A stretch of 64,000 nt of DNA, taken from positions 99,990-163,989 of the forward strand of contig JACPKL010000008.1 in the NCBI GenBank assembly GCA_016187035.1, in the 5' to 3' direction. This DNA comes from Candidatus Daviesbacteria bacterium (GTDB lineage Bacteria; Patescibacteriota; Microgenomatia; Daviesbacterales; UBA10151). Numbering within the stretch: position 1 is the stretch's first letter; every line of letters starts with the position of its first letter. Positions 32,052 through 46,961 of the stretch are shown piece after piece. The position numbers and the translations under genes are program-made. The notes beneath the pieces are model-generated. The model saw only the letters and a program-made list of their open reading frames with translations, was not told where the DNA came from and searched no databases.

Positions 32052-32098
32052 TTGAAGAAAGATTCCCACGCCCCGCCGTGGCGGGGCTCGGAATGACA
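32005..32098. repeat. palindromic mini-element type A, full copy with GC-rich inner hairpin
   Basis: TGTCATTGCGAGGAATCGGACTGAGCGAAGCGACGTGGCAATCTT .. GCCCCGC-CGTG-GCGGGGC .. CTCGGAATGACA. Confidence 0.8.
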
Positions 32099-32109
32099 GA
32101 AAGGAAACT

Positions 32110-34971
32110 ATGATCCAAAAGGTTAGAGTTATTACAAAAGTAGGACCAGATTTAAAAGGGATAGACATATTATCTGATATCCATAAAATGCTGGGTCTAA
32201 AAAAAGTCGACAAAGTAATTAGCATTAAAGTTTATAGGTTAGAAGGAGCAACAGAAAAACAAGCAAAGATTTTAGCAAAGCAACTCCTCTGTGAACAAAT
32301 TAATCAATCTTATTCAATTAACAAACCATTCTCTCACCTTCCAGGTTCTCACCTCGGAGGTGTAGCCATAGACTCGGCAGGTGTGACTATAGAAATTGCT
32401 TATAAGCCTGGTGTGATGAACCCGGAAGCTGCCTCGGTTTTAAAAGCTGCTAAGGATTTAGGGATCAAACTTCTTGCTGCCGATTCTTCTTACGAGTATG
32501 CATTTTTTGGAAGCATTACTAAAGAAGAGATAATAAAAATCGTTGAGAAGCTTAAACTTTATAATCCTTTAATAGAACATATTGTTATAGAGGAATCTAA
32601 AACCCTGCTTATCAAGGGGCAACCCGGTAAAACAAACATTATTCATATCAGGGATTGCAGTGACAAGCAGCTAATGGAGTTTTCAAAAGACAAACTGTTT
32701 CTTAATTTGGAGGAAATGAAGACAATTCAAAAATATTTTCAAAAAATTAAAAGAGACCCGACAGATGTGGAGTTGGAGACTTTGGCCCAAACCTGGAGTG
32801 AACATTCCGGCCATAAAACTTTTAAAGCCGACTTAATAGTAGACGGAAAACAGAAAGCGCCCTTGATATATAGGATTAAAACAGAAGCCCTAAAACATAA
32901 AAAGAACATAGTATCAGCTTTTGAAGATAACTCAGGGGTGATGGATTTTTATGATGGATGGGCAATTAATGGAAAAGGAGAAACTCATAATGCTCCCTCC
33001 AGTATAGAACCATATGGAGGGGCAATGACCGGCTCAGGGGGAGTTTTTAGAGATGTTTTAGCCACCGGCCAAGGAGCAAAAAATGTTATCTCAACAGATG
33101 TGTTTTGTTTTGCTCCACCTGAATATCCTAGTAAAAATTTACCTGCCGGCACTTTACCGCCTTTATATCTTTTAAAAAGAGTAGTGGCAGGAGTAAGGGA
33201 TTATGGTAACAGGGTAGGTATCCCTACCAGTAATGGTTCTGTCCACTTTCATCAAGATTTTAGGGCCAGGCCAACAGTTTTGGTAGGAGCATATGGGATT
33301 ATTCCCAAAAAATATGCCCAAAAAGGCAAACCAGAATTAGGAGATTTAATTGTGGTAATAGGAGGAAAAACAGGCAGGGATGGGATTCATGGGGCAACCT
33401 TTTCCTCAGGGGAGATGACAGAACGGACTATTAATGTTAATTCTACTGCTGTCCAAATTGGTAATGCCATTGAAGAAAAAAGAGTCTTTGATGCAATTTT
33501 AGAAGCCAGGGATAATGATTTAATAAGAGCTTTACAAGATTGTGGAGGCGGAGGATTTTCTTCAAGTATAGGAGAGATAGGTGAAAGTTTAGGGGTAACA
33601 ATTAATTTAGAAAAAGCTCCTTTAAAATATCCGGGGCTGTCTCCTTGGGAAATGTGGGTATCAGAATCACAGGAAAGAATGATTATAGTTTTGCAAAAGA
33701 AGAATTTAAGAAGATTCTTAAGAATTTGTGAAAAATACAATGTGGAAGCGTCAGTGATTGGTAAGTTTGATGGAAGCAAAAAGTTAAATATCTACCTTGA
33801 AAGAGAGAAAGTTTGTGACCTTTCTATGGAATTTTTGCATAAAGGGCTGCCTAAAAAAGTGTTAGTAGCAAGGCAGGAAACAGGTAACAGAAAGAAAAGT
33901 GATACTCCACCCATACCTAAAAATGAAGGGGAATGGATTCATGTTTTAGAAAAAGTTTTGTCCCATGGTAATGTTTGTTCCAAGGAATCAATTGTCAGAC
34001 TTTATGATCATACTGTCCAGGGGACGTCTGCTCTTCCTCCATTTACAGGGATAAAACAGGATAGTCCAAATGATGCAGTAGTTATCAGGCCTATCTTAGA
34101 CAAACCATATGGAATGATAGTATCTCATGGGTTAAATCCTGTTTTAAATAACATTGATCCATACTGGGGGAGTCTTTGGGCAGCTACAGAAGCTGTGGCA
34201 AATTATGCGGCTGTTGGAGGAGATTACCAGGAAGCATCTTTGATAGAAAACTTTATCTGGCCATTTCCTGATGAGCAGTCTCTTTGGTCTTTGGATCAGT
34301 CAGTAGATGCAGTAGTAGATTTTATGAAAGTTTTAAAAATTCCTGTGATTTCTGGTAAGGATAGTTTATCTTCCACTTACAGAGGTTCTGCCGGAGTAAT
34401 TAAAATTCCTCCAGTTTTATGTATCTCTGTTTTTGGCAAATTAGCTGATGTTACAAAAACTATATCTTTAGATTTTAAAAAAGTCGGGTCTACAATTGTT
34501 CTTTTAGGAAAACAGGATTTAGAAATGGGAGGATCTACCTATTTTGATGTTAATGGTGTATTAGGAGATCAGGTGCCTAAAGTAGATTTAAAACTTTTAC
34601 CAGAAGTTTTATCAACACTGCACAAAGCCATTAAACTTAGGAGTATTTTGGCAGCTCATGATATTTCCGAAGGAGGTTTGATTACTGCAATCTTTGAAAT
34701 GTGTTTGGGAGGCAGAATGGGAGCGGAGCTGCACCTCGAAGGAGTCAAAGCCCACCTTCGAGGTAACTTTCTTTTTAATGAAACAGCAGGCTGTTTTATT
34801 GTGGAAGTTAAGAATGAAAAAATGGCAGAAAAATTATTTAGAAATCTTCCATATAAAATTATTGGAAAAACAACATCACAATTTTCTATTAGTGCAAACG
34901 GATTATTTGAAGCAGATATTAAAAAATTAGAAAAGAAATGGAAAAAACCAATGGAGGAGATATTTTCTTGA
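32110..34971 (+). CDS. purL: FGAM synthase: PurS-PurS-PurL fusion (no glutaminase domain)
   Basis: Two roughly 80-aa PurS-like repeats (residues about 1-75 and 92-165). These are followed by a PurL core with SEHSGHKTF, ETHNAPS.IEPYGGA.TG and GRDGIHGATFSS. Confidence 0.9.
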   Translation: MIQKVRVITKVGPDLKGIDILSDIHKMLGLKKVDKVISIKVYRLEGATEKQAKILAKQLLCEQINQSYSINKPFSHLPGSHLGGVAIDSAGVTIEIAYKPGVMNPEAASVLKAAKDLGIKLLAADSSYEYAFFGSITKEEIIKIVEKLKLYNPLIEHIVIEESKTLLIKGQPGKTNIIHIRDCSDKQLMEFSKDKLFLNLEEMKTIQKYFQKIKRDPTDVELETLAQTWSEHSGHKTFKADLIVDGKQKAPLIYRIKTEALKHKKNIVSAFEDNSGVMDFYDGWAINGKGETHNAPSSIEPYGGAMTGSGGVFRDVLATGQGAKNVISTDVFCFAPPEYPSKNLPAGTLPPLYLLKRVVAGVRDYGNRVGIPTSNGSVHFHQDFRARPTVLVGAYGIIPKKYAQKGKPELGDLIVVIGGKTGRDGIHGATFSSGEMTERTINVNSTAVQIGNAIEEKRVFDAILEARDNDLIRALQDCGGGGFSSSIGEIGESLGVTINLEKAPLKYPGLSPWEMWVSESQERMIIVLQKKNLRRFLRICEKYNVEASVIGKFDGSKKLNIYLEREKVCDLSMEFLHKGLPKKVLVARQETGNRKKSDTPPIPKNEGEWIHVLEKVLSHGNVCSKESIVRLYDHTVQGTSALPPFTGIKQDSPNDAVVIRPILDKPYGMIVSHGLNPVLNNIDPYWGSLWAATEAVANYAAVGGDYQEASLIENFIWPFPDEQSLWSLDQSVDAVVDFMKVLKIPVISGKDSLSSTYRGSAGVIKIPPVLCISVFGKLADVTKTISLDFKKVGSTIVLLGKQDLEMGGSTYFDVNGVLGDQVPKVDLKLLPEVLSTLHKAIKLRSILAAHDISEGGLITAIFEMCLGGRMGAELHLEGVKAHLRGNFLFNETAGCFIVEVKNEKMAEKLFRNLPYKIIGKTTSQFSISANGLFEADIKKLEKKWKKPMEEIFS
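32350..32362. repeat. CACCTCGGAGGTG core (type C/D-like) in the linker between the two PurS-like repeats
   Basis: Same core as 13417-13427, 43089-43099 and the arms of 38541-38595. Preceded by a CTCACCT direct repeat. Encodes ..SHLPGSHLGGV.. Confidence 0.4.
34732..34764. repeat. type C element (short form), 33 nt, exactly 11 codons, in frame in purL
   Basis: CACCTCGAAGG-AGTC-AAAGCCCACCTTCGAGGT. Same arms and AAAGCCCA module as 38541-38595, but lacks its inner hairpin. Encodes HLEGVKAHLRG. Confidence 0.75.
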
Positions 34972-35747
34972 AACCTAAAATTTGTGTTTTAAAATCTGAC
35001 GGGACTAATTGTGATGAGGAGCTTTATTATGCTTTTGAAAAGGTTGGAGGAGATCCAGAGTTGGTTCATATTAATGAAGTAAGAAATAAAAATGTCAGGT
35101 TTAAGGATTTTCAGGTGATTGCTTTTCCGGGCGGATTTTCTTATGGGGATGATATTGCATCAGGAAAAATTTTGGCTGTAGAGATGGTGAGTTTTTTAAA
35201 AGAAGAACTGGAAAATTTTCGAGCCAAGAATGGGGTAATAATTGGAATTTGTAATGGATTCCAAACATTAATCAGGACAGGGCTTTTGCCTTTTGGAAGT
35301 TTAGGCAAGATGGATGCAACCTTAGCCCCAAATGACAGCGGTCACTTCGAATGCAGGTGGGTTAGACTGAAAAAAGAAAAAGTTAACAAATGTAAATTCT
35401 TGCAAGGGGATGAAAATATTGGTTGGTTTGCCGTTAATCACGGAGAAGGAAAACTCTTCGCCGGTAATGAGACAATAAAAACAATTGAGCAATCCGGCCT
35501 GGTTGTTTTTAGATATGTTGATGAAAATAACAGGCCAACTCAAAAATACCCTAATAATCCCAATGGTTCAATTAATGCCATAGCTGGAATTTGTGATCCA
35601 AAAGGATTAGTATTTGGGATGATGCCTCATCCTGAGAAATTTGTAGATTTAACCCAATATCCAAACTGGAGAAGGGAAAAGATTGAAAAACCTCATGGAC
35701 TGTTTATTTTTGAAAATATAGTTAAATTTGCAAGGGTGGCAAAATGA
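34968..35747 (+). CDS. purQ: FGAM synthase glutaminase subunit
   Basis: Class I GATase: GGFSYGDD, GICNGFQ, HPE. TTG 34968 (TTGA overlap with the purL stop, GGAGGAG 8 nt upstream) is preferred to ATG 34938. Confidence 0.85.
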   Translation: MKPKICVLKSDGTNCDEELYYAFEKVGGDPELVHINEVRNKNVRFKDFQVIAFPGGFSYGDDIASGKILAVEMVSFLKEELENFRAKNGVIIGICNGFQTLIRTGLLPFGSLGKMDATLAPNDSGHFECRWVRLKKEKVNKCKFLQGDENIGWFAVNHGEGKLFAGNETIKTIEQSGLVVFRYVDENNRPTQKYPNNPNGSINAIAGICDPKGLVFGMMPHPEKFVDLTQYPNWRREKIEKPHGLFIFENIVKFARVAK

Positions 35748-37231
35748 TAATTTTAGTTGATTTTGGCGGACAAACAGCACATCTGATTTCCAGAAGAATC
35801 AGGGAGCTGGGAATAGAATGTACAGCTTTAGATCCAGAAGAATCTTTACAAAAAATTAAGGAGTTAAAACCTAAAGGAATAATTTTCTCAGGTGGGCCAG
35901 CATCTGTTTATGAAAAAAGTTCACCAACTGTTGATAAAAAGACTTTTGATTTACAAGTTCCAATTTTAGGAATTTGTTATGGAGAACAGCTAATAACGTA
36001 TCTTTTGGGTGGTAAAGTAAAACCCGGCAAAAAAGAATATGGTCCGGCTACACTGATAATAAATAAATCTTCAAAATTATTAAAAGGAATTCCAGAAAAT
36101 TCCAAAGTTTGGATGTCACATGGAGATGAAGTAGAGGGGCTTCCAAAAGGATTTGTAAATAATGGGAAAACCCAAACCATTCCTCATGCTGCTATATCAA
36201 ATGAAAAGAAAAAAATATATGCAATTCAATTTCATCCGGAAGTTATACATACAGAATTTGGTATGGAAATCTTAGAAAATTTTATTAAGATTTGCGGATT
36301 AAAGATTAAAAAAAGAATTATCAACAGGGAATTCATAGAAAATATCATTCAAGATATTAAGGATTCGATTGGGGGAGATAAAGCAATTTGTGCATTATCA
36401 GGAGGAGTTGACTCTGCTGTTGCAGCAGCTTTAGTGCGTGAAGCAATTGGTGAGAATCTCCAATCTATTTATATTGATTCAGGTTTAATGAGAGATGGAG
36501 ATGCTGTAAACATGAGGAATGTAAAAATTATAGATGCTGGCAATCAATTTTTAAAAGCACTCAAAGGAGTCTCAGATCCAGAAGAAAAAAGAAAGATTAT
36601 TGGCAAAGCATTTATAGAAGTTTTTGAAACTGTTGCTAAAAAATCAGGAGCTAAATTTTTAGTCCAAGGAACAATTTATCCAGATGTGATTGAATCAGCA
36701 GGTAGTAAACATTCTCAGGTTATTAAATCCCATCATAATGTTGGAGGATTACCTAAAGAAATGAGTTTGACTTTGGTTGAACCATTGAGAAACTTTTATA
36801 AAGATGAGGTAAGACAAATAGGAAAAATTTTAGGATTGCCGGAAAGTATTACTCAAAGGCAGCCTTTTCCAGGGCCAGGTTTGGCAGTTAGAATTATCGG
36901 AGAAGTTACAGAAAGAAAGCTGGAGATTTTAAGAAAGGCAGATAAAATATTACAGGAAGAACTAAGGGATTATCAGGATAGTCTTTGGCAGGCATTTACT
37001 GTTTTTACATCAATAAAAACAACAGGAATTAGGGGAGACAACAGGGCTTATGGGGAAACAATTGCTATCAGGGCGATTGAGGCAAAAGATGCCATGAGTG
37101 CCAATTTTGCCAAGCTTTCATATACAATTTTAGACAAAATTTCCACCAGAATTGTTAATGAAGTACCTCAAGTTAACAGAGTAGTCTATGATATCACCAA
37201 CAAACCCCCAGCTACTATGGAATGGGAATAG
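35744..37231 (+). CDS. guaA: GMP synthase (glutamine-hydrolysing)
   Basis: GICYGEQL, HPEV, SGGVDS PP-loop, C-terminal ..PPATMEWE. Confidence 0.9.
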   Translation: MIILVDFGGQTAHLISRRIRELGIECTALDPEESLQKIKELKPKGIIFSGGPASVYEKSSPTVDKKTFDLQVPILGICYGEQLITYLLGGKVKPGKKEYGPATLIINKSSKLLKGIPENSKVWMSHGDEVEGLPKGFVNNGKTQTIPHAAISNEKKKIYAIQFHPEVIHTEFGMEILENFIKICGLKIKKRIINREFIENIIQDIKDSIGGDKAICALSGGVDSAVAAALVREAIGENLQSIYIDSGLMRDGDAVNMRNVKIIDAGNQFLKALKGVSDPEEKRKIIGKAFIEVFETVAKKSGAKFLVQGTIYPDVIESAGSKHSQVIKSHHNVGGLPKEMSLTLVEPLRNFYKDEVRQIGKILGLPESITQRQPFPGPGLAVRIIGEVTERKLEILRKADKILQEELRDYQDSLWQAFTVFTSIKTTGIRGDNRAYGETIAIRAIEAKDAMSANFAKLSYTILDKISTRIVNEVPQVNRVVYDITNKPPATMEWE

Positions 37232-38539
<1,308 letters not shown>

Positions 38540-38595: not shown

Positions 38596-38633
38596 TTTTG
38601 CTTGCTACGATGACAAGAGTGTAGCATAAGTCT

Positions 38634-38662
38634 TTGACATTTGGTAGTCTATTTAATATACT
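38634..38662 (+). promoter_or_regulatory. purP operon promoter, leaderless configuration
   Basis: TTGACA 38634-38639, 17-nt spacer, TATACT 38657-38662. ATG 38668 follows after 5 nt. Confidence 0.55.
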
Positions 38663-38667
38663 AAGAT

Positions 38668-39687
38668 ATGGGAATAAAGAAACATACAATTGTAACATTA
38701 GGTTCTCATTCTGCGTTGCAGATCCTCAAAGGTGCAAAAGATGAGGGATTTAAAACTGCTGTCATAGCAACCCCAGATAGAATTGCTCTTTATACCAGCT
38801 ACAAAAATTTCATTGATGAAATAATGGAAGTGAAAACCTGGAAAGATTTTCCAAGTTTAGAAAAAGACCTATTGGAAAGAAATGCCATTATTATTCCCCA
38901 TGGTTCATTTGTGGCATATTTAGGAATGGCAGAAAACAAACAAATGCAAGTTTCCTATTTTGGCAATAAGTTAGTTTTAGATTGGGAAGAAAATAGAAAG
39001 ATGCAAAGGTTGTGGCTTGAAGAGGCGCAAATAAAAGTACCACACAAGTTTAAAAGAGGGGATAGAATTGACAGGCCAGTAATAGTTAAATCATACGGAG
39101 CCGCCGGGGGTAAAGGGTATTTTGTCTCCCGGAATCAAAAAGAATTTGATGAAAAACTAAAAAGCTTTAGTGAAGAAAGATTTATTGTTCAGGAGTATGT
39201 AATTGGAGTACCAGTCTACTTTCACTTTTTCTATTCACCCCTAACTTCCAAGGTTGAAGTAATGAGTATTGATAAAAGATATGAGACTAATGTTGATTCC
39301 TTGGGTAGAATTCCTGCCAAAAACCAAAGAGGGTTAAACATTGACCCTTCTTTTGAAGTAGTTGCCAATATCCCTATGGCGATCAGGGAATCACTTTTAG
39401 CAGAGGCTGTTTCAATGGCAGAAAGGGTAATACAAGCTTCGCAAAAGCTGATATCTCCCAAAGGGCTTTTTGGACCATTTTGTCTGGAAACAATTATTAC
39501 TTCAACTGAAGAAATTTATGCAATTGAGATATCTGCCAGGATTGTTGCCGGTACTAATTGTTTTATTAATGGCTCACCCTATACATATTTAAACTATAAT
39601 GAACCTATGTCAACAGGAAGAAGAATTGCCAGGGAAATTAAAAATGCTATTAAGTTAAATAAATTAAAAGAGGTGCTGGATGGATAA
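38668..39687 (+). CDS. purP: archaeal-type FAICAR synthetase PurP (ATP-grasp), paralog 1
   Basis: TLGSHSALQILKGAKDEGFKT.., IIPHGSFVAY, YFHFFYSPL, GPFCLETI. This is the pattern I recall from PurP (M. jannaschii MJ0136 family). Confidence 0.75.
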   Translation: MGIKKHTIVTLGSHSALQILKGAKDEGFKTAVIATPDRIALYTSYKNFIDEIMEVKTWKDFPSLEKDLLERNAIIIPHGSFVAYLGMAENKQMQVSYFGNKLVLDWEENRKMQRLWLEEAQIKVPHKFKRGDRIDRPVIVKSYGAAGGKGYFVSRNQKEFDEKLKSFSEERFIVQEYVIGVPVYFHFFYSPLTSKVEVMSIDKRYETNVDSLGRIPAKNQRGLNIDPSFEVVANIPMAIRESLLAEAVSMAERVIQASQKLISPKGLFGPFCLETIITSTEEIYAIEISARIVAGTNCFINGSPYTYLNYNEPMSTGRRIAREIKNAIKLNKLKEVLDG

Positions 39688-40753
39688 ACAATATACCATT
39701 GCTGTTTTAGGGTCTCACTGCGCTCTTGATGTTTGCAGAGGGGTAAAAGATGAGGGTTTTAAAACATTGGTTATTTCCCAAAGGGGTAGAGAAAAAACTT
39801 ATCAAAAGTATTACAAAAATATCGTTGATGAATGTCTGGTTTTAGATAAGTTTAAAGATATTCTAAAGCGGGAAATTCAGAAAATTTTAAGAGATAGAAA
39901 CGCTATTTTTATTCCCCACAGGTCTTTTGAGGTTTATATAAATGATTATGATGCTATTGAGAAAAAATTTAGGGTACCAATATTTGGTAATAGATTTCTT
40001 TTGCGGTATGAAGAAAGAAATCAAAAACCTAATCAATATGATTTGCTTACTAAAGCAAATATCAGATACCCCAAACAATTTAAAGATCCTAAGGATATAG
40101 ATAGGCTTTGTATTGTTAAGGTTTTAGAAAAGGAAAGGGGATATGAGCGAGCATTCTTTTTGGTAGAAAATTATGAGCAATATAAATTGGAGTCTGAAGA
40201 TAAAATATTAAAAGGACAAATTACAAAAGAACAATTAGAAAATGCTGTTATAGAAGAATTTATAATTGGTGTGCAAGTTAATTTTAATTTTTTCTATTCT
40301 CCAATTTTAAAAAGATTAGAATTAATTGGTACTGATACCAGAAGGCAAACTAATATTGAAGGTTTGGTGAGAATTCCTGCCTTATATCAACAATCTATTT
40401 TGGAAAAAGTATCTATTAAATATGAAGAAGCAGGACATATTGCAGTAACTGTTTTGGAATCTCTTTTGGAAGAGGTTTTTGCAGTAGGAGAGAAATTTGT
40501 AAAAGCATCCCAGGATTTAATACCGCCAGGTGTGATTGGGCCATTTGGGTTGCAAACAGTCATCACTGCAGGTCCTCCTAAAAAAGAAATTATTGTTTTT
40601 GATGTTTCACCAAGGATGCCGGGAAGTCCAGGGATATTTGCAACACCATATAGCGGATATTTATATGGACAAAATATTTCGATGGGAAAAAGAGTGGCAA
40701 TGGAAATTAAAGATGCGATAGAGAGTAGAAAGTTAGATGGGATAGTAACTTGA
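39680..40753 (+). CDS. PurP-family ATP-grasp protein, paralog 2
   Basis: VLGSHCALDVCRGVKDEGFKT, FIPHRSFEVY, NFNFFYSPI, GPFGLQTVI. Collinear with paralog 1 and overlaps it by 8 nt. Confidence 0.7.
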   Translation: MDKQYTIAVLGSHCALDVCRGVKDEGFKTLVISQRGREKTYQKYYKNIVDECLVLDKFKDILKREIQKILRDRNAIFIPHRSFEVYINDYDAIEKKFRVPIFGNRFLLRYEERNQKPNQYDLLTKANIRYPKQFKDPKDIDRLCIVKVLEKERGYERAFFLVENYEQYKLESEDKILKGQITKEQLENAVIEEFIIGVQVNFNFFYSPILKRLELIGTDTRRQTNIEGLVRIPALYQQSILEKVSIKYEEAGHIAVTVLESLLEEVFAVGEKFVKASQDLIPPGVIGPFGLQTVITAGPPKKEIIVFDVSPRMPGSPGIFATPYSGYLYGQNISMGKRVAMEIKDAIESRKLDGIVT

Positions 40754-40789
40754 TCCAATTACATGTGCGATCGTACACCAAAATGGTAT

Positions 40790-41545
40790 ATGAAAAAATT
40801 TAAAGCTTTAATAATGGATTGCGATGGAACATTAATTTTACCTCAAAGAGATGCAATGCCAACACCTAAAGTAACTAAGGCAATAAAACAAGCTTCTAAA
40901 AAACTGCATGTGGGAATTGCTACTCAGCGTGCTACTCCTAACACTATTCCAATAATTAAACATCTAGATTTAATTGGTCCCTCAATTGTAGCTGGAGGGT
41001 CATTAATTATAGACAGTAAATCTCTTAAAGTTATAAAAGAAGAAATAATTGATTTTGACTCAATATATCAAGTTATAAAGATTGCCAAAGATTACAAAAA
41101 GTATGGAGGTCCTTTTTTAATTCAAGATAGTGAAAAAGGTGATGAAGAATGGGCTGAAAGTTACGTTATAGGAAAGCCAATTGGTTTATTTATTGGCAGT
41201 CTAAGCTATGATTTGGCGATTGAATTAGAGGATAAATTGTCAAAAATTCCTAATATTGCAGTACACAAAGTAATTCCCTGGGCAGGTCAGTTTGGCTTGG
41301 CAGTAAATGCAGCTTTAGCAACTAAGCAACATGGTATATTTGAAGTGGCAAAGATTTTGGGTATTAATACTCACGAGATAATAGGTATTGGGGATAGTTA
41401 TAATGATTTTCCTTTGCTGATGGCCTGTGGATTAAAGGTGGCTATGGGAAATGCAGTGGAGGAGTTAAAAGCGATTGCAGATTATATTGCACCATCTGTA
41501 GAGGAAGATGGGATAGTGGATGTGATTAATAAATTCGTACTATGA
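40790..41545 (+). CDS. HAD-superfamily (Cof-type, IIB) phosphatase
   Basis: LIMDCDGTL motif I and GDSYNDFPLL..AMGNA motif IV. ATG 40790 preferred to 40763. Confidence 0.7.
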   Translation: MKKFKALIMDCDGTLILPQRDAMPTPKVTKAIKQASKKLHVGIATQRATPNTIPIIKHLDLIGPSIVAGGSLIIDSKSLKVIKEEIIDFDSIYQVIKIAKDYKKYGGPFLIQDSEKGDEEWAESYVIGKPIGLFIGSLSYDLAIELEDKLSKIPNIAVHKVIPWAGQFGLAVNAALATKQHGIFEVAKILGINTHEIIGIGDSYNDFPLLMACGLKVAMGNAVEELKAIADYIAPSVEEDGIVDVINKFVL

Positions 41546-43062
41546 TAAAGAAGTTTGCCTTACTAAGTGTTTATGATAAAACCGGGATTTCTGATTTAGC
41601 TAAGATTTTAAGAGAGCTTGGATATGAAATTATTTCCACCGGCGGAACTTTTGAAGTTTTGAAAAATGACGGGATAAAAGTTATTCCAATTGAAGAGATC
41701 ACCGGAAATCCTAGGGATTCATTTGATGGCAGGATGAAAACTATCAGTTTTCAGATTGAGTCAGGAATTTTGTTTGACAGGGAAAATCCCAAGCATCTGG
41801 AGCAGGTTCAAAAATTAAATATTCCCCAAATAGATATTGTTGTTTGCAATCTTTATCCATTTGAAGAAAAACCTTCTATTGAAACAATTGATGTTGGTGG
41901 TCCCACTATGATTAGGGCAGCTGCTAAAAATTACCAAAATTGTGTAGTAATTGTTGACCCAAAAGATTATGGTCAAGTTAAAAATGTTTTGGATAATAAG
42001 CAATTAAGAAAACAATTGGCTTCTAAGGCTTTTTATCATTTGTCTTTTTATGACAGCCAGATTGGTAAGTTTTTTAATGAAGAAAAGTTTCCCAAAGAGG
42101 TGACAATTCCCCTCAGGAAAACTAATGTCTTAAGGTATGGAGAAAATCCGCATCAAGATGGAACTTTATATTTAACTGCGAATACTAATTCGCCACTTAG
42201 CAAATTAAACCATCTTTGGGGAAGGCAGTTATCTGGTACAAATATCGGTGACATCTATGCAGGAGTGGAGACTGTCAGACAATTTCAAGAAGCTGCAGCT
42301 TGTGTGGTCAAACATTTAAGCCCTTGTGGTATTGCGACAGGAACTGATGCAAAAGAAGCTTTAGATAGGGCAGTTGAAGCAGATCCTGTTTCTGCATTTG
42401 GTGGTGTAATAGTCTTAAATAGAAAAATGGATCTTGAGGCTGCAAAAATCGTAGCCACTTTTAAAAATGAAAAAGAGGGTAATATTGATATAGTGGCTGT
42501 TCCAGAGATTTCTGATCAGGCTTGTAAGCTACTAAGGGAAGTCAGAAAAAGTATGGGAATTTATACATTCGGCAATATACCTGATTACCGTACTGAAAAA
42601 TGGGATATAAAATATTTTGCAGGAGGAATGCTTTTACAGGATTTTGATGACAATGTGGAAAATAGCTTTAAAGATTGGGAAGTGGTGACAAAAACTAAAC
42701 CAATTGAAAAACAGTATAGATTAATGCAGTTTGGTTTTAAGGCAGTGAAAGCAGTCAGGTCAAATGCTGTTTTAGTAGTTGATAAAGATATGCCAATGAC
42801 CAGGGGAATTGGTTCCGGACAAACATCAAGGGTGGGTGCTGCTAAGATTGCCCTAGAGCAGGCAGGTGATTTTGCCAAAGGCGGTATATTAATCAGTGAT
42901 AGTTTTTTCCCTTTTGATGATTGTGTCAAGCTTGCGGCAAAATTTGGAATTAGTGCTATAGTAGAGCAAGGGGGATCTGTTAATGATGCAGCGTCAGTGG
43001 CAGCTGCAAATGAGGTAGGCATTTCAATGGTGTTTACAGAAAGGAGAGCATTTAGGCACTAG
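41542..43062 (+). CDS. purH: bifunctional AICAR transformylase/IMP cyclohydrolase
   Basis: LLSVYDKTG..STGGT, VCNLYPFE, RYGENPHQ, VKHLSPCG, GSGQTSRV, SDSFFPF, C-terminal ..FTERRAFRH. Confidence 0.9.
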   Translation: MIKKFALLSVYDKTGISDLAKILRELGYEIISTGGTFEVLKNDGIKVIPIEEITGNPRDSFDGRMKTISFQIESGILFDRENPKHLEQVQKLNIPQIDIVVCNLYPFEEKPSIETIDVGGPTMIRAAAKNYQNCVVIVDPKDYGQVKNVLDNKQLRKQLASKAFYHLSFYDSQIGKFFNEEKFPKEVTIPLRKTNVLRYGENPHQDGTLYLTANTNSPLSKLNHLWGRQLSGTNIGDIYAGVETVRQFQEAAACVVKHLSPCGIATGTDAKEALDRAVEADPVSAFGGVIVLNRKMDLEAAKIVATFKNEKEGNIDIVAVPEISDQACKLLREVRKSMGIYTFGNIPDYRTEKWDIKYFAGGMLLQDFDDNVENSFKDWEVVTKTKPIEKQYRLMQFGFKAVKAVRSNAVLVVDKDMPMTRGIGSGQTSRVGAAKIALEQAGDFAKGGILISDSFFPFDDCVKLAAKFGISAIVEQGGSVNDAASVAAANEVGISMVFTERRAFRH

Positions 43063-43066
43063 AAGA

Positions 43067-43104: not shown

Positions 43105-43114
43105 ATAGGATATC

Positions 43115-44488
43115 ATGATTATGAAAGATATTTTTAAAAATTATTCAAGTCCGTTTTCTTGGAGGTATGGGTCTGAGGAGATGAGACAGATCTTTTCCGA
43201 GGAAAATAAATATAAATTATGGAGAAAAATTTGGGTGGAGTTGGCTAGAGCACAAAACAAAGAGGGATTAGTGGGAAAAGAAGAATTAGAAGATTTAGAG
43301 AAAAATCAGAACAATATTAATATAGAAAGAATTTGGGAAATTGAAAAAGAGACAAGACATGATGTGGTAGCAGCAATTAAAGAATTTGGCGAGATTGCCA
43401 AAATTGGCGGTGGGAAAATACACCTTGGCGCTACTTCAATGGATATTAATGACAATACGGAAACCGTAAGAATGTACGAAGCGCTCGATATAATAGAAAA
43501 TCAATTAATAAAATTAATTAAAACCTTTGGTGAAAAAATTAATAAGTATGCTGACTTTGTTTGTATGGGTTACACCCATTTACAACCGGCAGAACCCACT
43601 ACTTTAGGATATAGATTTGCCTTTTATGCACAAGATCTATTAATGGATTTAGAGTTACTTCGATTTGTTAAAAAGAACTTAAAGAGTAAAGGATTAAAAG
43701 GGGCTGTTGGAACATCTGCCAGTTATGTCAGTTTATTAAATTTAGAAAAGGCCCAGCAGATGGAAAAAGAGGTATTAGAAGGATTAGGGGGATTAGAAGC
43801 CTATGAAATAACCAACCAGACTTCACCAAGAAAAATAGAAGTCTGGTTAGGGAATTTATTATCATCTATTGCTCAAAGTTTATATAAATTTGCTTTTGAT
43901 TTAAGAATTATGCAGTCTCCGCAGTTTGGCCAGTGGCAGGAGCCTTTTTCTAAATCCCAGGTTGGTTCATCAGCTATGCCTTTTAAGAAAAATCCAATTA
44001 AAGCTGAGCAAATCTGTTCTTTATCAAGACTCACGGTAAGTTTGTCAAGGGTGCTTTGGGATAATGCTTCGCATATGTTACTGGAAAGGACTCTTGATGA
44101 TTCAGCAAACAGAAGAATCGTCATCCCTGAGATGTTTTTGGCAATTGATGAAATGTTAACCAGTGCAGATAATATTGTTGCCGGGTTAATGATAAACGAT
44201 AAACAAGTAACGAAAAACCTTGAAACCTATTGGCCTTTTTCAGCATCAGAAGGAATAATTATTGAAGCAGTGAAAAAAGGTGCAGACAGGCAAAGAATAC
44301 ATGAAGTCTTAAGAGAAATTTCCACGGAAGCTGAACTAAAGCCTATGGTAGAATTATTTCTTAAGTCTCAAGAAATAAACAAATATTTAAGTTCTGAGGA
44401 AATTAAAAAATTACTGGATGCTAAAAATCATATTGGAAATGCCAAAGAAAAAGCTTTAGAATTGGTTAGTAAGATTAATAAAATATGA
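43115..44488 (+). CDS. purB: adenylosuccinate lyase
   Basis: Fumarate-lyase signature GSSAMPFKKNP, YTHLQPAEPTTLG. Confidence 0.9.
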   Translation: MIMKDIFKNYSSPFSWRYGSEEMRQIFSEENKYKLWRKIWVELARAQNKEGLVGKEELEDLEKNQNNINIERIWEIEKETRHDVVAAIKEFGEIAKIGGGKIHLGATSMDINDNTETVRMYEALDIIENQLIKLIKTFGEKINKYADFVCMGYTHLQPAEPTTLGYRFAFYAQDLLMDLELLRFVKKNLKSKGLKGAVGTSASYVSLLNLEKAQQMEKEVLEGLGGLEAYEITNQTSPRKIEVWLGNLLSSIAQSLYKFAFDLRIMQSPQFGQWQEPFSKSQVGSSAMPFKKNPIKAEQICSLSRLTVSLSRVLWDNASHMLLERTLDDSANRRIVIPEMFLAIDEMLTSADNIVAGLMINDKQVTKNLETYWPFSASEGIIIEAVKKGADRQRIHEVLREISTEAELKPMVELFLKSQEINKYLSSEEIKKLLDAKNHIGNAKEKALELVSKINKI

Positions 44489-44985
44489 CTAGGGTTCTTA
44501 TAATATCTGCATCTGAGTCTGATTTGATAGTGATGAGAGAGGCTGCAAAAGTTTTGGATGAATTTGGGGTTGAATATGAATTAACAATTTCTTCAGCCCA
44601 TAGATCACCTGATAGATCGGTAAAGTTAGTCAAAAATTTTTATGGCAGTGATGGAAAAGTAATTATTTGCGGAGCAGGGTTGGCCGCGCATTTGGCAGGG
44701 GTGGTGGCAGCACATTTTCCTTTGCCAGTGATAGGGGTTCCTTTAAAAAACAAAGGAGGATTAGAAGGGTTAGAGGGATTAGATGCATTGCTTTCTACAA
44801 TGCAGATGCCCTCAGGTATTCCAGTTGCTACTGTTGGAATAGATAATGCCAAGAATGCAGGAATCTTAGCAGTACAAATTTTAGCTACCTCAGATAAAAA
44901 CTTAGAAAGAAAATTGGTAGATTATAAGAAAAAGTTAGCAAGAATTGTGGAAGAAAAGGCAAAACAATTGTCATCCCGTACTTGA
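44485..44985 (+). CDS. purE: N5-CAIR mutase (class I PurE-like)
   Basis: SAHRSP, GAGLAAHLAGVVAA..PVIGVP, MPSGIPVATV. The AAHL loop resembles class I enzymes. The last 5 codons and the stop lie in repeat 44969-45039. Confidence 0.85.
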   Translation: MTRVLIISASESDLIVMREAAKVLDEFGVEYELTISSAHRSPDRSVKLVKNFYGSDGKVIICGAGLAAHLAGVVAAHFPLPVIGVPLKNKGGLEGLEGLDALLSTMQMPSGIPVATVGIDNAKNAGILAVQILATSDKNLERKLVDYKKKLARIVEEKAKQLSSRT

Positions 44986-45039
44986 TATGGGATCTATATA
45001 AATAATATTTTATGGATTCTCGCTTTCGCGGGGATGACA
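44969..45039. repeat. palindromic mini-element type A (AT-rich centre)
   Basis: TGTCATCCCGTA .. CGCGGGGATGACA termini, and GGATTCTCG is related to the GGAAGATTCCTCG module. Confidence 0.7.
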
Positions 45040-45046
45040 AGGATAT

Positions 45047-45985
45047 ATGGTACCAACTAAAAAGATTTTAGACAGTATTCCTCTTGTCCTCAAAACTATT
45101 AATATTCCCCGCCTTGGAGAAAAAAGCAGCGGCAAAGTCAGAGACTATTTTTTACTTGATGGAAAAAGAGTATTAGTAACTACTGACAGGTTATCTGCTT
45201 TTGACAGAGTATTAGGCTGTTTTCCTTATAAAGGACAGGTCTTGAACCAGTTGAGTGAGTTTTGGTTTGAAAAGACCAAGGATATCATTTTTAACCACAT
45301 GATTTCTGTGCCGGATCCAAATGTGATGATTGTTAAAAATTGTAAAACTATCCCGATAGAAATGGTAGTCCGCGGATTTATTACAGGTGTGACTGATACT
45401 TCCATTTGGGGATTTTACCAGGCAGGAGAAAGAGTGATTTATGGGATTAAATTTCCAGATGGATTAAAAAAGAATCAAAAACTGCCAGATCCGCTGATTA
45501 CTCCTACCACTAAAGCAGAACAGGGGCATGATGAGAGATTAACTGAAAAAGAAATATTAAAAAGAAAAATAGTTACCCCAAAAATCTGGAATCAAATGAA
45601 AACATCTAGCTTGGCACTTTTCAAAAGAGGGCAAAAAATTTGTGACAAAGGAGGAATAATTTTAGTTGATACCAAATATGAATTTGGGTTGGATGAAAAA
45701 AATAAATTAATTTTAATTGATGAAATACATACTCCTGATTCTTCCAGATTTTGGCTAAAGGGCACCCATAAAAATTTTGACAAAGAATTTTTAAGAATTT
45801 GGTTTGCCCAAAGGGGATATAAAGGAGAGGGTCAACCGCCAAAAATGCCAACTGAATTCATGGCTCAAGTTAGTGCCAGATACATAAAAATATATGAGAA
45901 GATTACCGGCAAAAAATTCCAAGCATTTAATTATCCAATAGACAAAAGAATCAAGAATAATTTAAAATATATATATGCCAAATAG
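45047..45985 (+). CDS. purC: SAICAR synthetase (long form)
   Basis: GKVRD.Y, TDRLSAFD, LVDTKYEFG, DEIHTPDSSRFW. Confidence 0.85.
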   Translation: MVPTKKILDSIPLVLKTINIPRLGEKSSGKVRDYFLLDGKRVLVTTDRLSAFDRVLGCFPYKGQVLNQLSEFWFEKTKDIIFNHMISVPDPNVMIVKNCKTIPIEMVVRGFITGVTDTSIWGFYQAGERVIYGIKFPDGLKKNQKLPDPLITPTTKAEQGHDERLTEKEILKRKIVTPKIWNQMKTSSLALFKRGQKICDKGGIILVDTKYEFGLDEKNKLILIDEIHTPDSSRFWLKGTHKNFDKEFLRIWFAQRGYKGEGQPPKMPTEFMAQVSARYIKIYEKITGKKFQAFNYPIDKRIKNNLKYIYAK

Positions 45986-46961
45986 TAATGGCTTTGTGCT
46001 AATAACCGGGACAGCTAATTTAAAATTAGCAAAAGATGTTGCTAAAATTTTAGGACAAAGAGTTTGGGAGACAGTTACAACGTTTGCGGATGGTGAAAAG
46101 AGGATTATCATTCCTGAAAATCTTAGAAAAAGAGAGGTATTTATTATTCAACCGACTTGTCCGCCTGTTGATTCGAGTATCATAGAGTTGTTTTTGATTA
46201 TTGATGCAGCAAAAAGATCCTCTGCCTCTGAAGTTACTGCTATAATTCCTTATTTTGGTTATTCGCGGCAGGACAGAAAAGACAGACCCAGAGTACCAAT
46301 ATCCGCATCGATTATGGCTAGGTTAATAGAATATGCAGGAGCAGATAGAATTCTGACTATTGACATTCATTCAGAACAGGAACCGGGTTTTGTGGAGATT
46401 CCCTGGGACAATTTATATAGCAGCTATTCGTTACTGCCAGTTCTCAAGGAAAGATTTCCTAGGAATCTAGTTGTGGCATCTCCTGATAAAAATGGGGTTG
46501 CAAGAGCAACTTTTTATGCAGAGCTATTAAAGGCAGACGGTATTGCAATCGGTTTTAAAGAAAGAGATACTAGTCAAAGAAATAAGAGTAAAGTTATGGA
46601 CATGATTGGAAACGTTAAGGATAAGGATGTGCTTTTAGTTGATGACATGATAGATACAGGAGGAACAATTGTTGATGCAGCAGATTTGATACAAAGTCGC
46701 GGGGCAAAAAGTATTTCTGTGGCAGCCACACATGGGATTTTTTCTGACCCTGCACCACAAAGAATTAAAGTTGCCCCGATTGATAAAATTTTTATCACGG
46801 ATACTATACCAATAAGACAGGATTTGTTAAGAAGTGGTAAAGTCGTGATAATTTCTGTTGCCAAACTTTTAGCAGAGGCAATAGGCTGTATTTACAATGG
46901 AGATTCAATGAGTGAAAAACTGATTCCCAAAGCACATAGAACATATGAAGAAAGAGATTAA
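45975..46961 (+). CDS. prs: ribose-phosphate pyrophosphokinase
   Basis: FADGE, YFGYSRQDRKDRPRVPISA, VDDMIDTGGT. Confidence 0.9.
   Translation: MPNSNGFVLITGTANLKLAKDVAKILGQRVWETVTTFADGEKRIIIPENLRKREVFIIQPTCPPVDSSIIELFLIIDAAKRSSASEVTAIIPYFGYSRQDRKDRPRVPISASIMARLIEYAGADRILTIDIHSEQEPGFVEIPWDNLYSSYSLLPVLKERFPRNLVVASPDKNGVARATFYAELLKADGIAIGFKERDTSQRNKSKVMDMIGNVKDKDVLLVDDMIDTGGTIVDAADLIQSRGAKSISVAATHGIFSDPAPQRIKVAPIDKIFITDTIPIRQDLLRSGKVVIISVAKLLAEAIGCIYNGDSMSEKLIPKAHRTYEERD

What the first reader, a model, noticed from the sequence alone, without database searches (positions are those of the whole stretch)
38668..43062. Two tandem archaeal-type PurP (FAICAR synthetase) paralogs plus a HAD phosphatase sit immediately upstream of an intact bacterial purH
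Seen: two collinear ATP-grasp proteins (339 and 357 aa) share the blocks LGSH.AL....G.KDEGFKT, IPH.SF..Y, F.FFYSP and GPF.L.T. They overlap by 8 nt and are followed by a Cof-type HAD hydrolase and then a full-length purH that has both the IMP cyclohydrolase and AICAR transformylase motifs (VKHLSPCG, GSGQTSRV). Established knowledge: PurP, characterised in Methanocaldococcus jannaschii, uses formate and ATP to make FAICAR and is regarded as an archaeal signature replacing folate-dependent AICAR transformylase. Inference: there may be redundant folate-dependent and formate-dependent routes for step 9, analogous to PurN/PurT for step 3. Alternatively, one paralog may have a different, unassigned ATP-grasp function in purine synthesis. 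The embedded HAD phosphatase has no assigned role and might dephosphorylate ZMP/AICAR or IMP.
Basis: partly seen in the sequence, partly recalled or inferred. Interest (0 to 1): 0.55.

Follow-up and report, generated by a model that had tools for sequence, protein, structure and literature searches.

The report
Archaeal PurP II/III pair in CPR bacterium
A candidate-phyla-radiation bacterium (Candidatus Daviesbacteria) carries, inside a complete purine-synthesis operon and next to a normal purH, the two ancient "archaea-only" PurP paralogues (types II and III) that always travel as a pair, so this module also exists in bacteria, where its unsolved function could be tested more easily.

Summary
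ORFs 38668-39687 (339 aa) and 39680-40753 (357 aa, 8-nt overlap) both carry the PurP domains DUF1246+DUF1297. A Cof-type HAD and a full-length purH follow.

They are not a recent tandem duplication (37% identity). ORF1 is a PurP II (cluster Ib, PF1517-type). ORF2 is a PurP III (cluster II), with His at Mj-Asn258 and a longer, glycine-poor "ERAFF" loop.

The host is bacterial: Ca. Daviesbacteria, Microgenomates. The published surveys I found call PurP archaea-only. Yet the pair sits in the purine operon in 78 of 80 Microgenomates species loci, and a second bacterial phylum (Vulcanimicrobiota) has it too.

purH is variable: 43 of 80 loci, two lineages, two insertion points. The HAD is sporadic (5 of 80). 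Both PurPs are as conserved as, or more conserved than, purB/purE/purC even where purH is present.

Best reading (inferred, about 0.5): a two-subunit, formate- and ATP-dependent AICAR-formylating module acquired from archaea. It would run beside a folate-dependent PurH, and thyA, folA, glyA, folD and purN are all in the window.

No activity has ever been shown for PurP II or III. The case is a new member of a known kind, of moderate interest.

The parts
38634..38662 (+). Sigma-70-like promoter candidate (TTGACA-17-TATACT, 11 of 12), ending 5 nt before the PurP-A start codon. It may drive a leaderless or near-leaderless operon transcript.
   Evidence: best-scoring site in 37000-48500; the overall number of sites is not above shuffles; sequence. 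This is a consensus match only.
38668..39687 (+). PurP-A: PurP II / cluster Ib-type ATP-grasp protein (339 aa). It has Asn at Mj-258, the P-loop AGGKG, and His27, Ser94, Lys156 and Arg314.
   Evidence: (best PDB match PF1517/2r84, E 3e-101).
39670..39675 (+). GAGGTG Shine-Dalgarno-like sequence inside the 3' end of PurP-A, 4 nt before the PurP-B ATG. This suggests translational coupling.
   Evidence: sequence read directly.
39680..40753 (+). PurP-B: PurP III / cluster II-type ATP-grasp protein (357 aa). It has His at Mj-258, a loop two residues longer (LEKERGYERAFF), and the class-specific residues R93, E163, R164, N208, Q230, E255, Q297, D310 and G317.
   Evidence: AlphaFold model pLDDT 85; TM 0.80 to MjPurP 2r7l.
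40763..41545 (+). Cof-type HAD-IIB phosphatase (260 aa; DxDGT and GDxxND motifs intact). Accessory gene; substrate unknown.
   Evidence: Present after PurP-B in only 5 of 80 related loci.
41542..43062 (+). Bifunctional purH (IMP cyclohydrolase + AICAR transformylase, 506 aa). All checked motifs of both domains are conserved.
   Evidence: (NF002049, 521 bits, above cut-off).
43115..46961 (+). Downstream genes on the same strand: purB (43115-44488), purE class I (44485-44985), purC (45047-45985), prs (45975-46961).
46958..48070 (-). purM (convergent with the operon).
28688..37231 (+). Upstream purine genes: purF, purN, purD, purS-purL fusion, purQ, guaA.
37232..38533 (-). purA, divergent from PurP-A.

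Best explanation
The two ORFs are the bacterial orthologues of the two ancient archaeal PurP paralogues that always occur together. ORF 38668-39687 is PurP II (cluster Ib, PF1517 type). ORF 39680-40753 is PurP III (cluster II, PF0421 type). They sit in the de novo purine operon of a Candidatus Daviesbacteria (CPR/Microgenomates) genome and were most likely acquired as a two-gene block from archaea long ago.

Proposed mechanism:
- The pair works together as a folate-independent enzyme that formylates AICAR to FAICAR using formate and ATP, through a formyl-phosphate intermediate as in M. jannaschii PurP.
- PurP II supplies the canonical ATP/AICAR site.
- PurP III is an obligate partner subunit with a remodelled but strictly conserved pocket.
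- FAICAR is then closed to IMP by the IMP-cyclohydrolase domain of the adjacent PurH.
- The transformylase domain of PurH provides a parallel 10-formyl-THF route fed by GlyA and FolD.
- The HAD phosphatase is a lineage-specific accessory gene.

Shown here: family and subgroup membership, operon context, co-occurrence, purifying selection, bacterial host.
Inferred: the catalytic activity, the A/B partnership, and the direction of transfer.
For: Family:
- Both proteins have DUF1246+DUF1297.
- They match only PurP structures strongly.
- The PurP-B model has TM 0.80 to MjPurP. The next fold is PurK at TM 0.51.

Subgroups:
- PurP-A has Asn258, a GGxG loop and PF1517 as best PDB match.
- PurP-B has His258 and a loop two residues longer. 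These are the markers Brown 2011 (PMC3261824) gives for cluster II.
- PurP-B also carries ten further class-invariant residues.
- Residues reported to contact the formyl group (His27, Arg314) and the ATP-grasp Lys156 are kept in both.

Pairing:
- PurP-A and PurP-B occur together in 78 of 80 species-level Microgenomates loci, usually adjacent or overlapping.
- In the window they overlap by 8 nt, with an SD inside PurP-A.
- Bacterial sequences of both paralogues group together in the tree, near PF1517 and near an archaeal PurP III respectively.
- In archaea PurP II and III co-occur in 61 of 61 OTUs, and a heterohexamer was proposed (PMC6486802).

Purine role:
- In 24 loci with at least 4 kb held on both sides, the operon encodes the other steps with the pair in between and no purH. 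An example is L079: purF purN purD purSL purQ PurPA PurPB purB purE purC purM.
- According to Brown 2011, S. solfataricus, which has only PurP II/III, incorporates formate when converting ZMP to IMP.

Non-redundancy:
- PurP-A (dN 0.11-0.15) and PurP-B (dN 0.13-0.20) are as constrained as purH and purB.
- The PurPB/purB divergence ratio is 0.86 with purH and 0.74 without. For PurPA/purB it is 0.58 and 0.77.

Bacterial host:
- Trigger factor, DnaX, RecR and ribosomal protein S2 are in the window.
- The 100%-identical database protein is named Candidatus Daviesbacteria (lineage).
- GC content is uniform: 0.32-0.37 in these genes against 0.36 for the window.
Against: - No PurP II or PurP III has a demonstrated activity. 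PF1517 and PF0421 tested singly were inactive, as reported by Brown 2011 and Cruz 2019.
- A physical A/B complex was not tested here and has not been shown anywhere. No natural II-III fusion appeared among the 150 listed representatives.
- PurH here looks fully functional, and the window encodes a complete THF one-carbon set. The cell therefore does not obviously need a formate route.
- Both proteins fall below every NCBIfam PurP equivalog cut-off (396 against 580 bits; 307 against 556 bits).
- No formate source or transporter was identified.
- PurP III keeps Lys156, Asp310 and Gln297. I take these, from general ATP-grasp knowledge, to be ATP/Mg-site residues. It also has its own invariant pocket residues. 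This fits an independent catalyst as well as it fits a partner subunit.
Confidence: 0.5

Rival explanations
1. The two proteins are independent enzymes. PurP-A alone is a homomeric formate-dependent FAICAR synthetase like MJ0136. PurP-B catalyses a different step, most attractively closure of FAICAR to IMP, with His258 replacing the carboxamide-binding Asn and acting as a base. On this reading the pair covers steps 9 and 10 without PurH.
For: - PurP III has its own invariant active-site set (R51, R93, R124, E163, R164, N208, Q230, E255, H258, Q297, D310, G317) and keeps Lys156, Arg228, Glu265 and Arg314. That is the signature of a distinct catalyst, not a decaying copy.
- 37 of 80 Microgenomates loci have no purH in the held stretch. 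24 of these have at least 4 kb on both sides, and their operons are otherwise complete.
- purH appears as two lineages only 40% identical to each other, at two different positions. This fits later additions.
- Brown 2011 noted a partial correspondence between duplicate PurPs and a missing IMP cyclohydrolase in archaea.
Against: - In Daviesbacteria a complete PurH supplies IMP cyclohydrolase under all conditions, yet PurP-B shows no relaxed constraint.
- Brown 2011 calls the archaeal phyletic pattern imperfect, and Methanosarcinales have PurH plus both PurPs.
- PF1517 alone was inactive in vitro.
Confidence: 0.22
2. Plain redundancy. Each PurP is a stand-alone FAICAR synthetase isozyme backing up the PurH transformylase, analogous to PurT/PurN, with no special relationship between the two copies.
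For: - Both keep His27, Arg314, Ser94 and Lys156.
- Both lie in the purine operon next to purH.
- The THF pathway is present, so two formyl sources are conceivable.
Against: - The two differ at about ten class-invariant active-site positions, including the AICAR carboxamide contact and the P-loop.
- They are 37% identical and belong to paralogue groups that, per the literature, diverged before the archaeal phyla did.
- Two isozymes would not be expected to co-occur in 78 of 80 loci and in 61 of 61 archaeal OTUs.
Confidence: 0.12
3. One paralogue, PurP-B, replaces the missing PurK. It would be an ATP-grasp enzyme carboxylating AIR to N5-CAIR for the class I PurE encoded three genes downstream.
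For: - The chemistry is nearly identical: ATP-activated one-carbon acid transferred to the exocyclic amine of an aminoimidazole ribonucleotide.
- PurK is the closest non-PurP fold (TM 0.51).
- The window's purE is class I (TIGR01162, 177 bits against a cut-off of 150), and none of the window ORFs I annotated is a purK.
- His replaces the Asn that binds the carboxamide, a group that AIR lacks.
Against: - Most Crenarchaeota have a validated PurK as well as PurP II and III (Brown 2011).
- According to the same paper, PurK is dispensable at high CO2.
- The formyl-contact residues His27 and Arg314 are retained.
Confidence: 0.05

Closest known systems
P. furiosus PF1517 (PurP II / cluster Ib; PDB 2r84-2r87)
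   Same: - Best solved-structure match of PurP-A (E 3e-101, end-to-end).
- Same length class.
- Asn258, GGxG loop, His27, Ser94 and Arg314.
- Groups beside the PF1517 branch in the NJ tree; that grouping was not bootstrapped and CPR PurP-A monophyly was 29/100.
- Always accompanied by a PurP III.
   Different: - Bacterial, mesophile-like, low-GC host.
- The first basic residue of the (K/R)GG(K/R)G loop is Ala in all eight CPR copies tabulated.
- Embedded in a bacterial-style pur operon with purN and purH.
PurP III / cluster II proteins (e.g. P. furiosus PF0421; no solved structure)
   Same: - His at Mj-258 and a loop two residues longer with few glycines, exactly as Brown 2011 describes.
- Shares all class-invariant residues with 43 representatives.
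- Closest identified archaeal relative is P0121 (53% identity), in a locus with PolB, Pus10 and a split GuaA.
   Different: - Found in bacteria.
- Gene order is II then III, overlapping. In the archaeal locus L086 it is III then II-like.
M. jannaschii PurP (MJ0136, PurP I; PDB 2r7k-2r7n), the only PurP with demonstrated FAICAR synthetase activity
   Same: - Same fold and domains.
- Conserved formyl, phosphate and ATP contact residues.
   Different: - Neither window protein falls in the PurP I clade.
- According to the literature, PurP I organisms have a single PurP plus PurO and no PurH.
- Activity cannot simply be transferred.
Methanosarcinales gene set purP II + purP III + full-length purH (10 archaeal OTUs in Cruz 2019)
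   Same: Same three-gene combination and the same apparent redundancy at step 9.
   Different: Archaeal. There the role of the PurPs is equally unresolved, and labelling data cited by Brown 2011 favour the folate route.
PurT/PurN duality at step 3, and PurK
   Same: ATP-grasp, formate- or bicarbonate-activating enzymes acting on purine intermediates. PurK and PurT are the nearest non-PurP folds.
   Different: About 12-15% identity and TM about 0.5. These operons use purN, not purT, for step 3.

Membership tests
PurP family (ATP-grasp, Pfam DUF1246 + DUF1297) | Both Pfam domains present over full length | tested here: met
   PurP-A scores 137 and 223 bits; PurP-B scores 152 and 214 bits. Cut-offs are 25 and 23.8 bits.
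PurP family (ATP-grasp, Pfam DUF1246 + DUF1297) | PurP three-dimensional fold | tested here: met
   For PurP-B: AlphaFold model pLDDT 85.4; Foldseek TM 0.80 to 2r7l and 0.75 to 2r84; next family is PurK at TM 0.51. PurP-A was not modelled, but its sequence match to 2r84 is E 3e-101.
PurP family (ATP-grasp, Pfam DUF1246 + DUF1297) | Formyl-contact residues His27 and Arg314 (Mj numbering), reported as 100% conserved in archaeal PurPs | tested here: met
   Both residues are present in PurP-A and PurP-B. The criterion comes from PMC3261824.
Formate--phosphoribosylaminoimidazolecarboxamide ligase (EC 6.3.4.23) as curated NCBIfam equivalogs NF009778-NF009783 | Score above the curated equivalog cut-off | tested here: not met
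   PurP-A's best score is 395.8 bits against a cut-off of 580. PurP-B's best is 307.1 bits against 556.
Formate--phosphoribosylaminoimidazolecarboxamide ligase (EC 6.3.4.23) | AICAR + formate + ATP -> FAICAR activity | not testable with these tools
   Needs an enzyme assay. Archaeal PurP II and III tested singly were inactive according to PMC3261824 and PMC6486802.
PurP II / cluster Ib | Asn at Mj-258 (AICAR carboxamide contact) and a (K/R)GG(K/R)G P-loop | tested here: met
   PurP-A has Asn258 and the loop YGAAGGKGYF. The GG and G are kept, but the first basic residue is Ala.
PurP II / cluster Ib | Groups with PF1517-type sequences rather than MJ0136-type | tested here: met
   PDB ranking: 2r84 at 3e-101 against 2r7k at 1e-85. 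NJ trees agree, but bootstrap for CPR PurP-A monophyly is only 29/100.
PurP III / cluster II | His replaces Asn258 | tested here: met
   PurP-B has AGHIAV. His is found in 43 of 43 class members.
PurP III / cluster II | P-loop region two residues longer, glycines lost, several basic residues | tested here: met
   PurP-B has LEKERGYERAFFL (13 residues) against PGARGGRGYFI (11) in Mj. The ER(A/G)FF motif is conserved across the class.
PurP III / cluster II | Exactly one copy per genome, always with a PurP II | tested here: met
   78 of 80 loci hold both. The two exceptions are contigs cut at the gene. Whole genomes were not examined.
'Archaeal signature' gene (PurP restricted to Archaea) | Found only in archaeal genomes | tested here: not met
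   - The window is bacterial.
- 212 relatives were found in GTDB species genomes, and the best 80 are Microgenomates.
- Close relatives also occur in Vulcanimicrobiaceae.
- Cruz 2019 found 0 of 1,266 complete bacterial genomes with PurP.
Bifunctional PurH (AICARFT/IMPCH) | Both domains with catalytic motifs: SV(S/Y)DK, GR(x)KT, NLYPF, AAKN for IMPCH; KH pair, GxGQ, FFPF for AICARFT | tested here: met
   The KHLSPCG Ser variant also occurs in T. maritima PurH, 1zcz.
Cof-type HAD-IIB phosphatase | HAD motifs I (DxDGT) and IV (GDxxND) with a type IIB cap; family score | tested here: inconclusive
   The motifs are present and conserved in 6 orthologues. Pfam Hydrolase_3 scores 119 bits, above its cut-off. 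TIGR00099 Cof scores 106 bits, below its cut-off of 137. The substrate cannot be predicted.

The most novel reading that the evidence does not exclude
In Microgenomates the PurP II/III pair is the original and complete route for both last steps of IMP synthesis, and purH is a later add-on acquired at least twice. On this reading PurP III would be the long-missing 'third' IMP cyclohydrolase or cyclase of Crenarchaeota and Pyrococcus: an ATP-grasp derivative in which His258 replaces the carboxamide-binding Asn.
Probability: 0.15. Interest if true: 0.8.

Novelty: new member of a known kind. Interest (0 to 1): 0.5.

Why it matters
- The two published surveys I could read (Brown 2011; Cruz 2019, 1,403 complete genomes) treat PurP as exclusive to Archaea. 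Here the PurP II/III pair is a conserved core of purine operons across a whole bacterial superphylum branch (Microgenomates) and also occurs in Vulcanimicrobiota. That revises the distribution and implies an inter-domain transfer of the pair as a unit.
- The function of PurP II and III, and the identity of the IMP cyclohydrolase in archaea that have only these two genes, have been open since 2008-2011.
- Co-transfer, translational coupling and undiminished constraint in the presence of PurH are new comparative evidence that the two proteins need each other.
- Low-GC orthologues from groundwater-type MAGs should be easier to express and to test by complementation in E. coli than hyperthermophile proteins.
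- These CPR genomes also encode a complete de novo purine pathway, which is unusual for a group generally described as unable to make nucleotides.

Tried and rejected
- PurK-replacement idea for PurP-B. It is chemically attractive, but Brown 2011 reports that most Crenarchaeota have a validated PurK together with PurP II/III. I kept it only as a low-probability rival.
- Riboswitch or leader RNA, including ZTP. There were no Rfam hits at gathering thresholds in the window, and only chance-level hits at E<=1 in 37000-44000.
- Inactivation of PurH. The N->S change in KHxNPCG looked suspicious, but it is fixed in all Daviesbacteria purH and also occurs in T. maritima PurH. Rejected.
- Recent tandem duplication or a contaminating archaeal contig. 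Rejected on 37% identity, class-specific residues, uniform GC and conservation in 80 genomes.
- Finding out whether 'purH-less' lineages have purH elsewhere. The third protein search, with the Levyibacteria-type purH, returned names truncated before the organism. This remains unresolved.
- Organism names for representative proteins through the listing of cluster members gave almost none. Neighbourhoods were used instead.
- Zhang, White & Ealick 2008 (PMC2597449) is not held. Its content is cited only through Brown 2011 and Cruz 2019.
- A word-start search for 'purP' matched 'purpose' and was useless. Whole-word searches found no paper linking PurP to CPR or other bacteria.
- dN/dS: dS is saturated (>1.5), so only dN comparisons are used.

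Full report
**Observation.**
- 38668-39687, 339 aa
- 39680-40753, 357 aa, overlapping the first by 8 nt
- 40763-41545, 260 aa
- 41542-43062, 506 aa, overlapping the third as ATGA

Both of the first two proteins carry the two PurP domains DUF1246 and DUF1297 at E 1e-40 to 1e-66. The third is a Cof-type HAD (Hydrolase_3, 3e-34). The fourth is a bifunctional purH. NCBIfam NF002049 scores 521 bits for purH, above its cut-off of 402.

**Host and neighbourhood.**
- The PurP-A sequence is 100% identical to a database protein named Candidatus Daviesbacteria bacterium, held on a 183-kb contig. Its lineage is Patescibacteria group, Microgenomates.
- The window itself is bacterial. It encodes trigger factor, DnaX, RecR, ribosomal protein S2 and an RseP-like M50 protease.
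- The genes lie inside a complete de novo purine cluster: purF, purN, purD, purS-L fusion, purQ, guaA, purA (minus strand), PurP-A, PurP-B, HAD, purH, purB, purE, purC, prs, purM (minus strand).
- purE is class I: TIGR01162 scores 177 bits against a cut-off of 150. None of the ORFs I annotated is a purK or purT, though not every small ORF in the window was scanned.
- The window also encodes thyA, folA, glyA and folD. A tetrahydrofolate one-carbon pathway able to make 10-formyl-THF is therefore present.
- GC content of the PurP genes (0.36 and 0.32) matches the window (0.36). They are not recent imports or assembly contaminants.
- A near-consensus sigma-70-like promoter (TTGACA-17-TATACT) ends 5 nt before the PurP-A ATG.
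- A GAGG Shine-Dalgarno sequence for PurP-B lies inside the 3' end of PurP-A.
- No riboswitch or other Rfam family was found.

**What the two PurPs are.** They are only 37% identical to each other, so they are not a recent tandem duplication.

The literature divides archaeal PurPs into four groups: PurP I (MJ0136, the only one with demonstrated FAICAR synthetase activity), PurP II (cluster Ib, PF1517), PurP III (cluster II, PF0421) and PurP IV (TK0431). PurP II and III co-occur in every genome that has either (PMC3261824; PMC6486802). Brown et al. give two markers for cluster II: His replaces Asn258 (Mj numbering, the AICAR carboxamide contact), and the (K/R)GG(K/R)G P-loop is replaced by a loop two residues longer with few glycines.

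I aligned the window proteins with MJ0136, PF1517, 70 family representatives and 14 CPR sequences.
- PurP-A has Asn258 and YGAAGGKGYF.
- PurP-B has His258 and LEKERGYERAFF.
- His27, Ser94, Lys156 and Arg314 are kept in both.

A class comparison of 43 His258 sequences against 32 Asn258 sequences shows that PurP III has its own invariant or near-invariant set: R51, R93 (Gly in I/II), R124, E163, R164, N208 (Tyr), Q230 (Glu), E255 (Val), H258, Q297 (Glu), D310 (Glu) and G317 (Ala). PurP-B has every one of them, and PurP-A has every I/II residue.

Further support:
- PurP-A's best solved relative is PF1517 (E 3e-101), ahead of MJ0136 (1e-85).
- An AlphaFold model of PurP-B (pLDDT 85) superposes on MjPurP at TM 0.80. 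The next family is PurK at TM 0.51.
- Both proteins fall below all six NCBIfam PurP equivalog cut-offs. They are family members, not curated equivalogs of the characterised enzyme.

**Distribution.** A scan of one genome per GTDB species with PurP-B found 212 relatives. The best 80 are all Microgenomates: Davies-, Curtiss-, Levyi-, Woese-, Roizman- and Gottesmanbacteria. Several carry placeholder 'uncultured Gammaproteobacteria' titles.

I annotated the loci against the window's genes.
- PurP-A and PurP-B are both present in 78 of 80 loci. The two exceptions are contigs cut at the gene.
- Gene orders found:
  - purA< PurPA PurPB purH: 32 loci, plus 3 with the HAD in between
  - purQ PurPA PurPB purB: 12 loci
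  - PurPA purA PurPB purB: 14 loci (Curtissbacteria type)
  - PurPA purH PurPB: 7 loci
- purH is present in 43 loci, as two lineages that are only about 40% identical to each other. One has KHLSPCG and follows PurP-B. The other has the canonical KHTNPCG and lies between the PurPs.
- 37 loci have no purH in the held stretch, and 24 of these have at least 4 kb on both sides. L079 reads purF purN purD purSL purQ PurPA PurPB purB purE purC purM. Every step is encoded, with the pair where steps 9 and 10 belong.
- The HAD occurs in only 5 of 80 loci, always directly after PurP-B.

The whole family is small: 634 representatives at 50% identity in 1.8 billion proteins. The closest non-CPR relatives of PurP-B are:
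- A clade named Vulcanimicrobiaceae, phylum Vulcanimicrobiota, which I take to be the former Eremiobacterota/WPS-2. Its locus reads purB purC purL purQ orf154 PurP orf383 PurP.
- A bacterial-looking Logan contig that also has purH.
- An archaeal protein, P0121, at 53% identity. Its locus has PolB, Pus10, SRP54 and a split GuaA.

In NJ trees the CPR PurP-B sequences are monophyletic (97/100). They sit with the other bacterial PurP III sequences next to the archaeal P0121. The CPR, Vulcanimicrobiota and L087 PurP II-like sequences group together next to the PF1517 branch. Deeper nodes are weakly supported (25-29/100). The simplest reading is that the two-gene block crossed from Archaea into Bacteria and then spread. 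This is an inference.

Whole-word literature searches found no paper linking PurP to CPR or other bacteria. Cruz et al. explicitly report 0 of 1,266 complete bacterial genomes with PurP. Database annotation pipelines do already name these proteins.

**Is PurH intact, and is anything decaying?**
- All IMPCH motifs (SVYDK, STGGT, GRMKT, NLYPF, GGPTMIRAAAKN) and AICARFT motifs (KH pair, SAFGG, GSGQTSR, SDSFFPF) are conserved across Daviesbacteria.
- The Ser in KHLSPCG also occurs in T. maritima PurH, 1zcz.
- Against five close relatives, dN values are (dS is saturated):

| Gene | dN |
|---|---|
| PurP-A | 0.11-0.15 |
| PurP-B | 0.13-0.20 |
| purH | 0.14-0.19 |
| purB | 0.15-0.19 |
| HAD | 0.33-0.44 |

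- Mean pairwise divergence relative to purB is 0.58 (PurP-A) and 0.86 (PurP-B) in the 29 purH-containing genomes. In the 25 purH-less ones it is 0.77 and 0.74.
- So neither PurP is relaxed when a complete PurH is present. PurP-A is the most conserved protein of the Daviesbacteria operon.

**Mechanism.** The best-supported explanation (confidence about 0.5) is that the pair is a two-component, formate- and ATP-dependent AICAR-formylating enzyme. PurP II carries the canonical ATP/AICAR site. PurP III is an obligate partner. PurH closes FAICAR to IMP and also offers the folate-dependent route.

Shown here:
- family and subgroup membership
- operon embedding
- near-universal co-occurrence and translational coupling
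- grouping of the bacterial sequences of both paralogues in the tree
- strong constraint on both

Taken from the literature:
- the 61/61 co-occurrence in archaea and the heterohexamer speculation
- formate incorporation into IMP by S. solfataricus extracts

Inferred: the activity and the complex.

The constraint result gives one argument for the partnership. PurH's cyclohydrolase is available whatever the folate status. If PurP-B were only an IMP cyclohydrolase it would be unconditionally redundant in Daviesbacteria, yet it is fully conserved. A subunit needed for a conditionally useful formate route fits better.

Against the best explanation:
- PF1517 and PF0421 were inactive when tested singly.
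- No complex has been shown.
- PurP III's own invariant pocket, with extra arginines and His258 and with Lys156, Asp310 and Gln297 retained, looks like an independent catalyst.

Rivals:
- Independent enzymes, with PurP-B as an IMP-forming cyclase: 0.22.
- Plain isozyme redundancy: 0.12.
- A PurK substitute: 0.05, weakened because Crenarchaeota have both PurK and PurP III.

**The HAD.** Its catalytic motifs are intact. Its closest solved relatives are sugar-phosphate phosphatases such as BT4131 and YidA. It is sporadic and evolves faster than its neighbours. It is an accessory gene, and a role in dephosphorylating ZMP or IMP is pure speculation.

**Verdict.** The interpretation needs refinement: this is the PurP II/III pair, not two copies of the characterised enzyme, and the pair, not purH, is the conserved element.

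This is a new member of a known kind. The same purP II + purP III + purH combination is known in Methanosarcinales. Two points are new relative to the literature I could search: the bacterial host range, and the comparative evidence that the two proteins are functionally coupled.

Interest is 0.5. A purine-pathway specialist would be moderately surprised. These bacterial orthologues, from low-GC groundwater-type MAGs, also give a practical handle on what PurP II and III do, a question open since 2008-2011.

Noticed in passing
window 38634-38667: The best promoter-like site in the region (TTGACA-17-TATACT) ends only 5 nt before the PurP-A ATG, and no Shine-Dalgarno sequence lies between them. 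The operon mRNA may be leaderless.
   Followed up: partly
window 4638-6212, 18123-20220, 30097-30708: A full set of folate-using enzymes is present: thyA, folA (DHFR), glyA, folD and purN. Together with a complete de novo purine pathway and the branched-chain amino-acid genes ilvB-like, ilvC and leuA (55379-60818), this is unusually rich biosynthesis for a CPR genome.
   Followed up: partly
window 44485-44985: purE is class I (N5-CAIR mutase), but none of the window ORFs I annotated is a purK. My reference set had no purK, so the related loci were not explicitly screened for it.
   Followed up: partly
L084 7332-7796 and 8853-10004 (JGI 3300050265, Vulcanimicrobiaceae-type contig, GC 0.67): Two orphan ORFs (154 aa and 383 aa) have no Pfam or NCBIfam hit, and the 383-aa one has no PDB sequence hit either. 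They flank the PurP II-like gene; the 383-aa ORF lies between the two PurPs, where other lineages have purH or purA. No purH lies within 10 kb. The 383-aa ORF is a candidate for an unknown purine-pathway protein.
   Followed up: partly
L038, L050, L051, L058, L060, L070, L080: A second purH lineage is only about 40% identical to the Daviesbacteria purH and carries the canonical KHTNPCG. It is inserted between PurP-A and PurP-B, which suggests independent recruitment of purH into the operon.
   Followed up: partly
loci L003-L082 (record titles): Many of the MAGs are titled 'uncultured Gammaproteobacteria bacterium' (binchicken TPA assemblies), and one is titled 'Candidatus Limnocylindrales' (L060). 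Their purine operons are typical Microgenomates, so the titles look like placeholders or mis-binning.
   Followed up: no
window 3505-4125 and 4052-4657: Two adjacent ORFs overlap by 74 nt and both hit the dCTP deaminase-like Pfam family (the second also hits dUTPase). They show no pairwise similarity to each other. They sit just upstream of thyA and folA.
   Followed up: partly
window 1-64000: GC skew is positive in every 2-kb bin, and nearly all genes are on the + strand. No tRNA or Rfam RNA gene occurs in 64 kb.
   Followed up: no
window 52001-54000 (ORF 52492-54099, minus strand): This is the lowest-GC stretch of the window (0.29). It holds a DUF4153 membrane-type protein on the minus strand and may be a foreign insertion.
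   Followed up: no
window 32110-34971: purL carries an N-terminal PurS domain. The purS-purL fusion is 953 aa.
   Followed up: partly
L087 10001-12411 (ENA ERZ25039587): The closest relative of CPR PurP-A outside the CPR lies in a contig where the second PurP and several pur genes are broken into fragments. These are probably long-read frameshift errors rather than pseudogenes.
   Followed up: no
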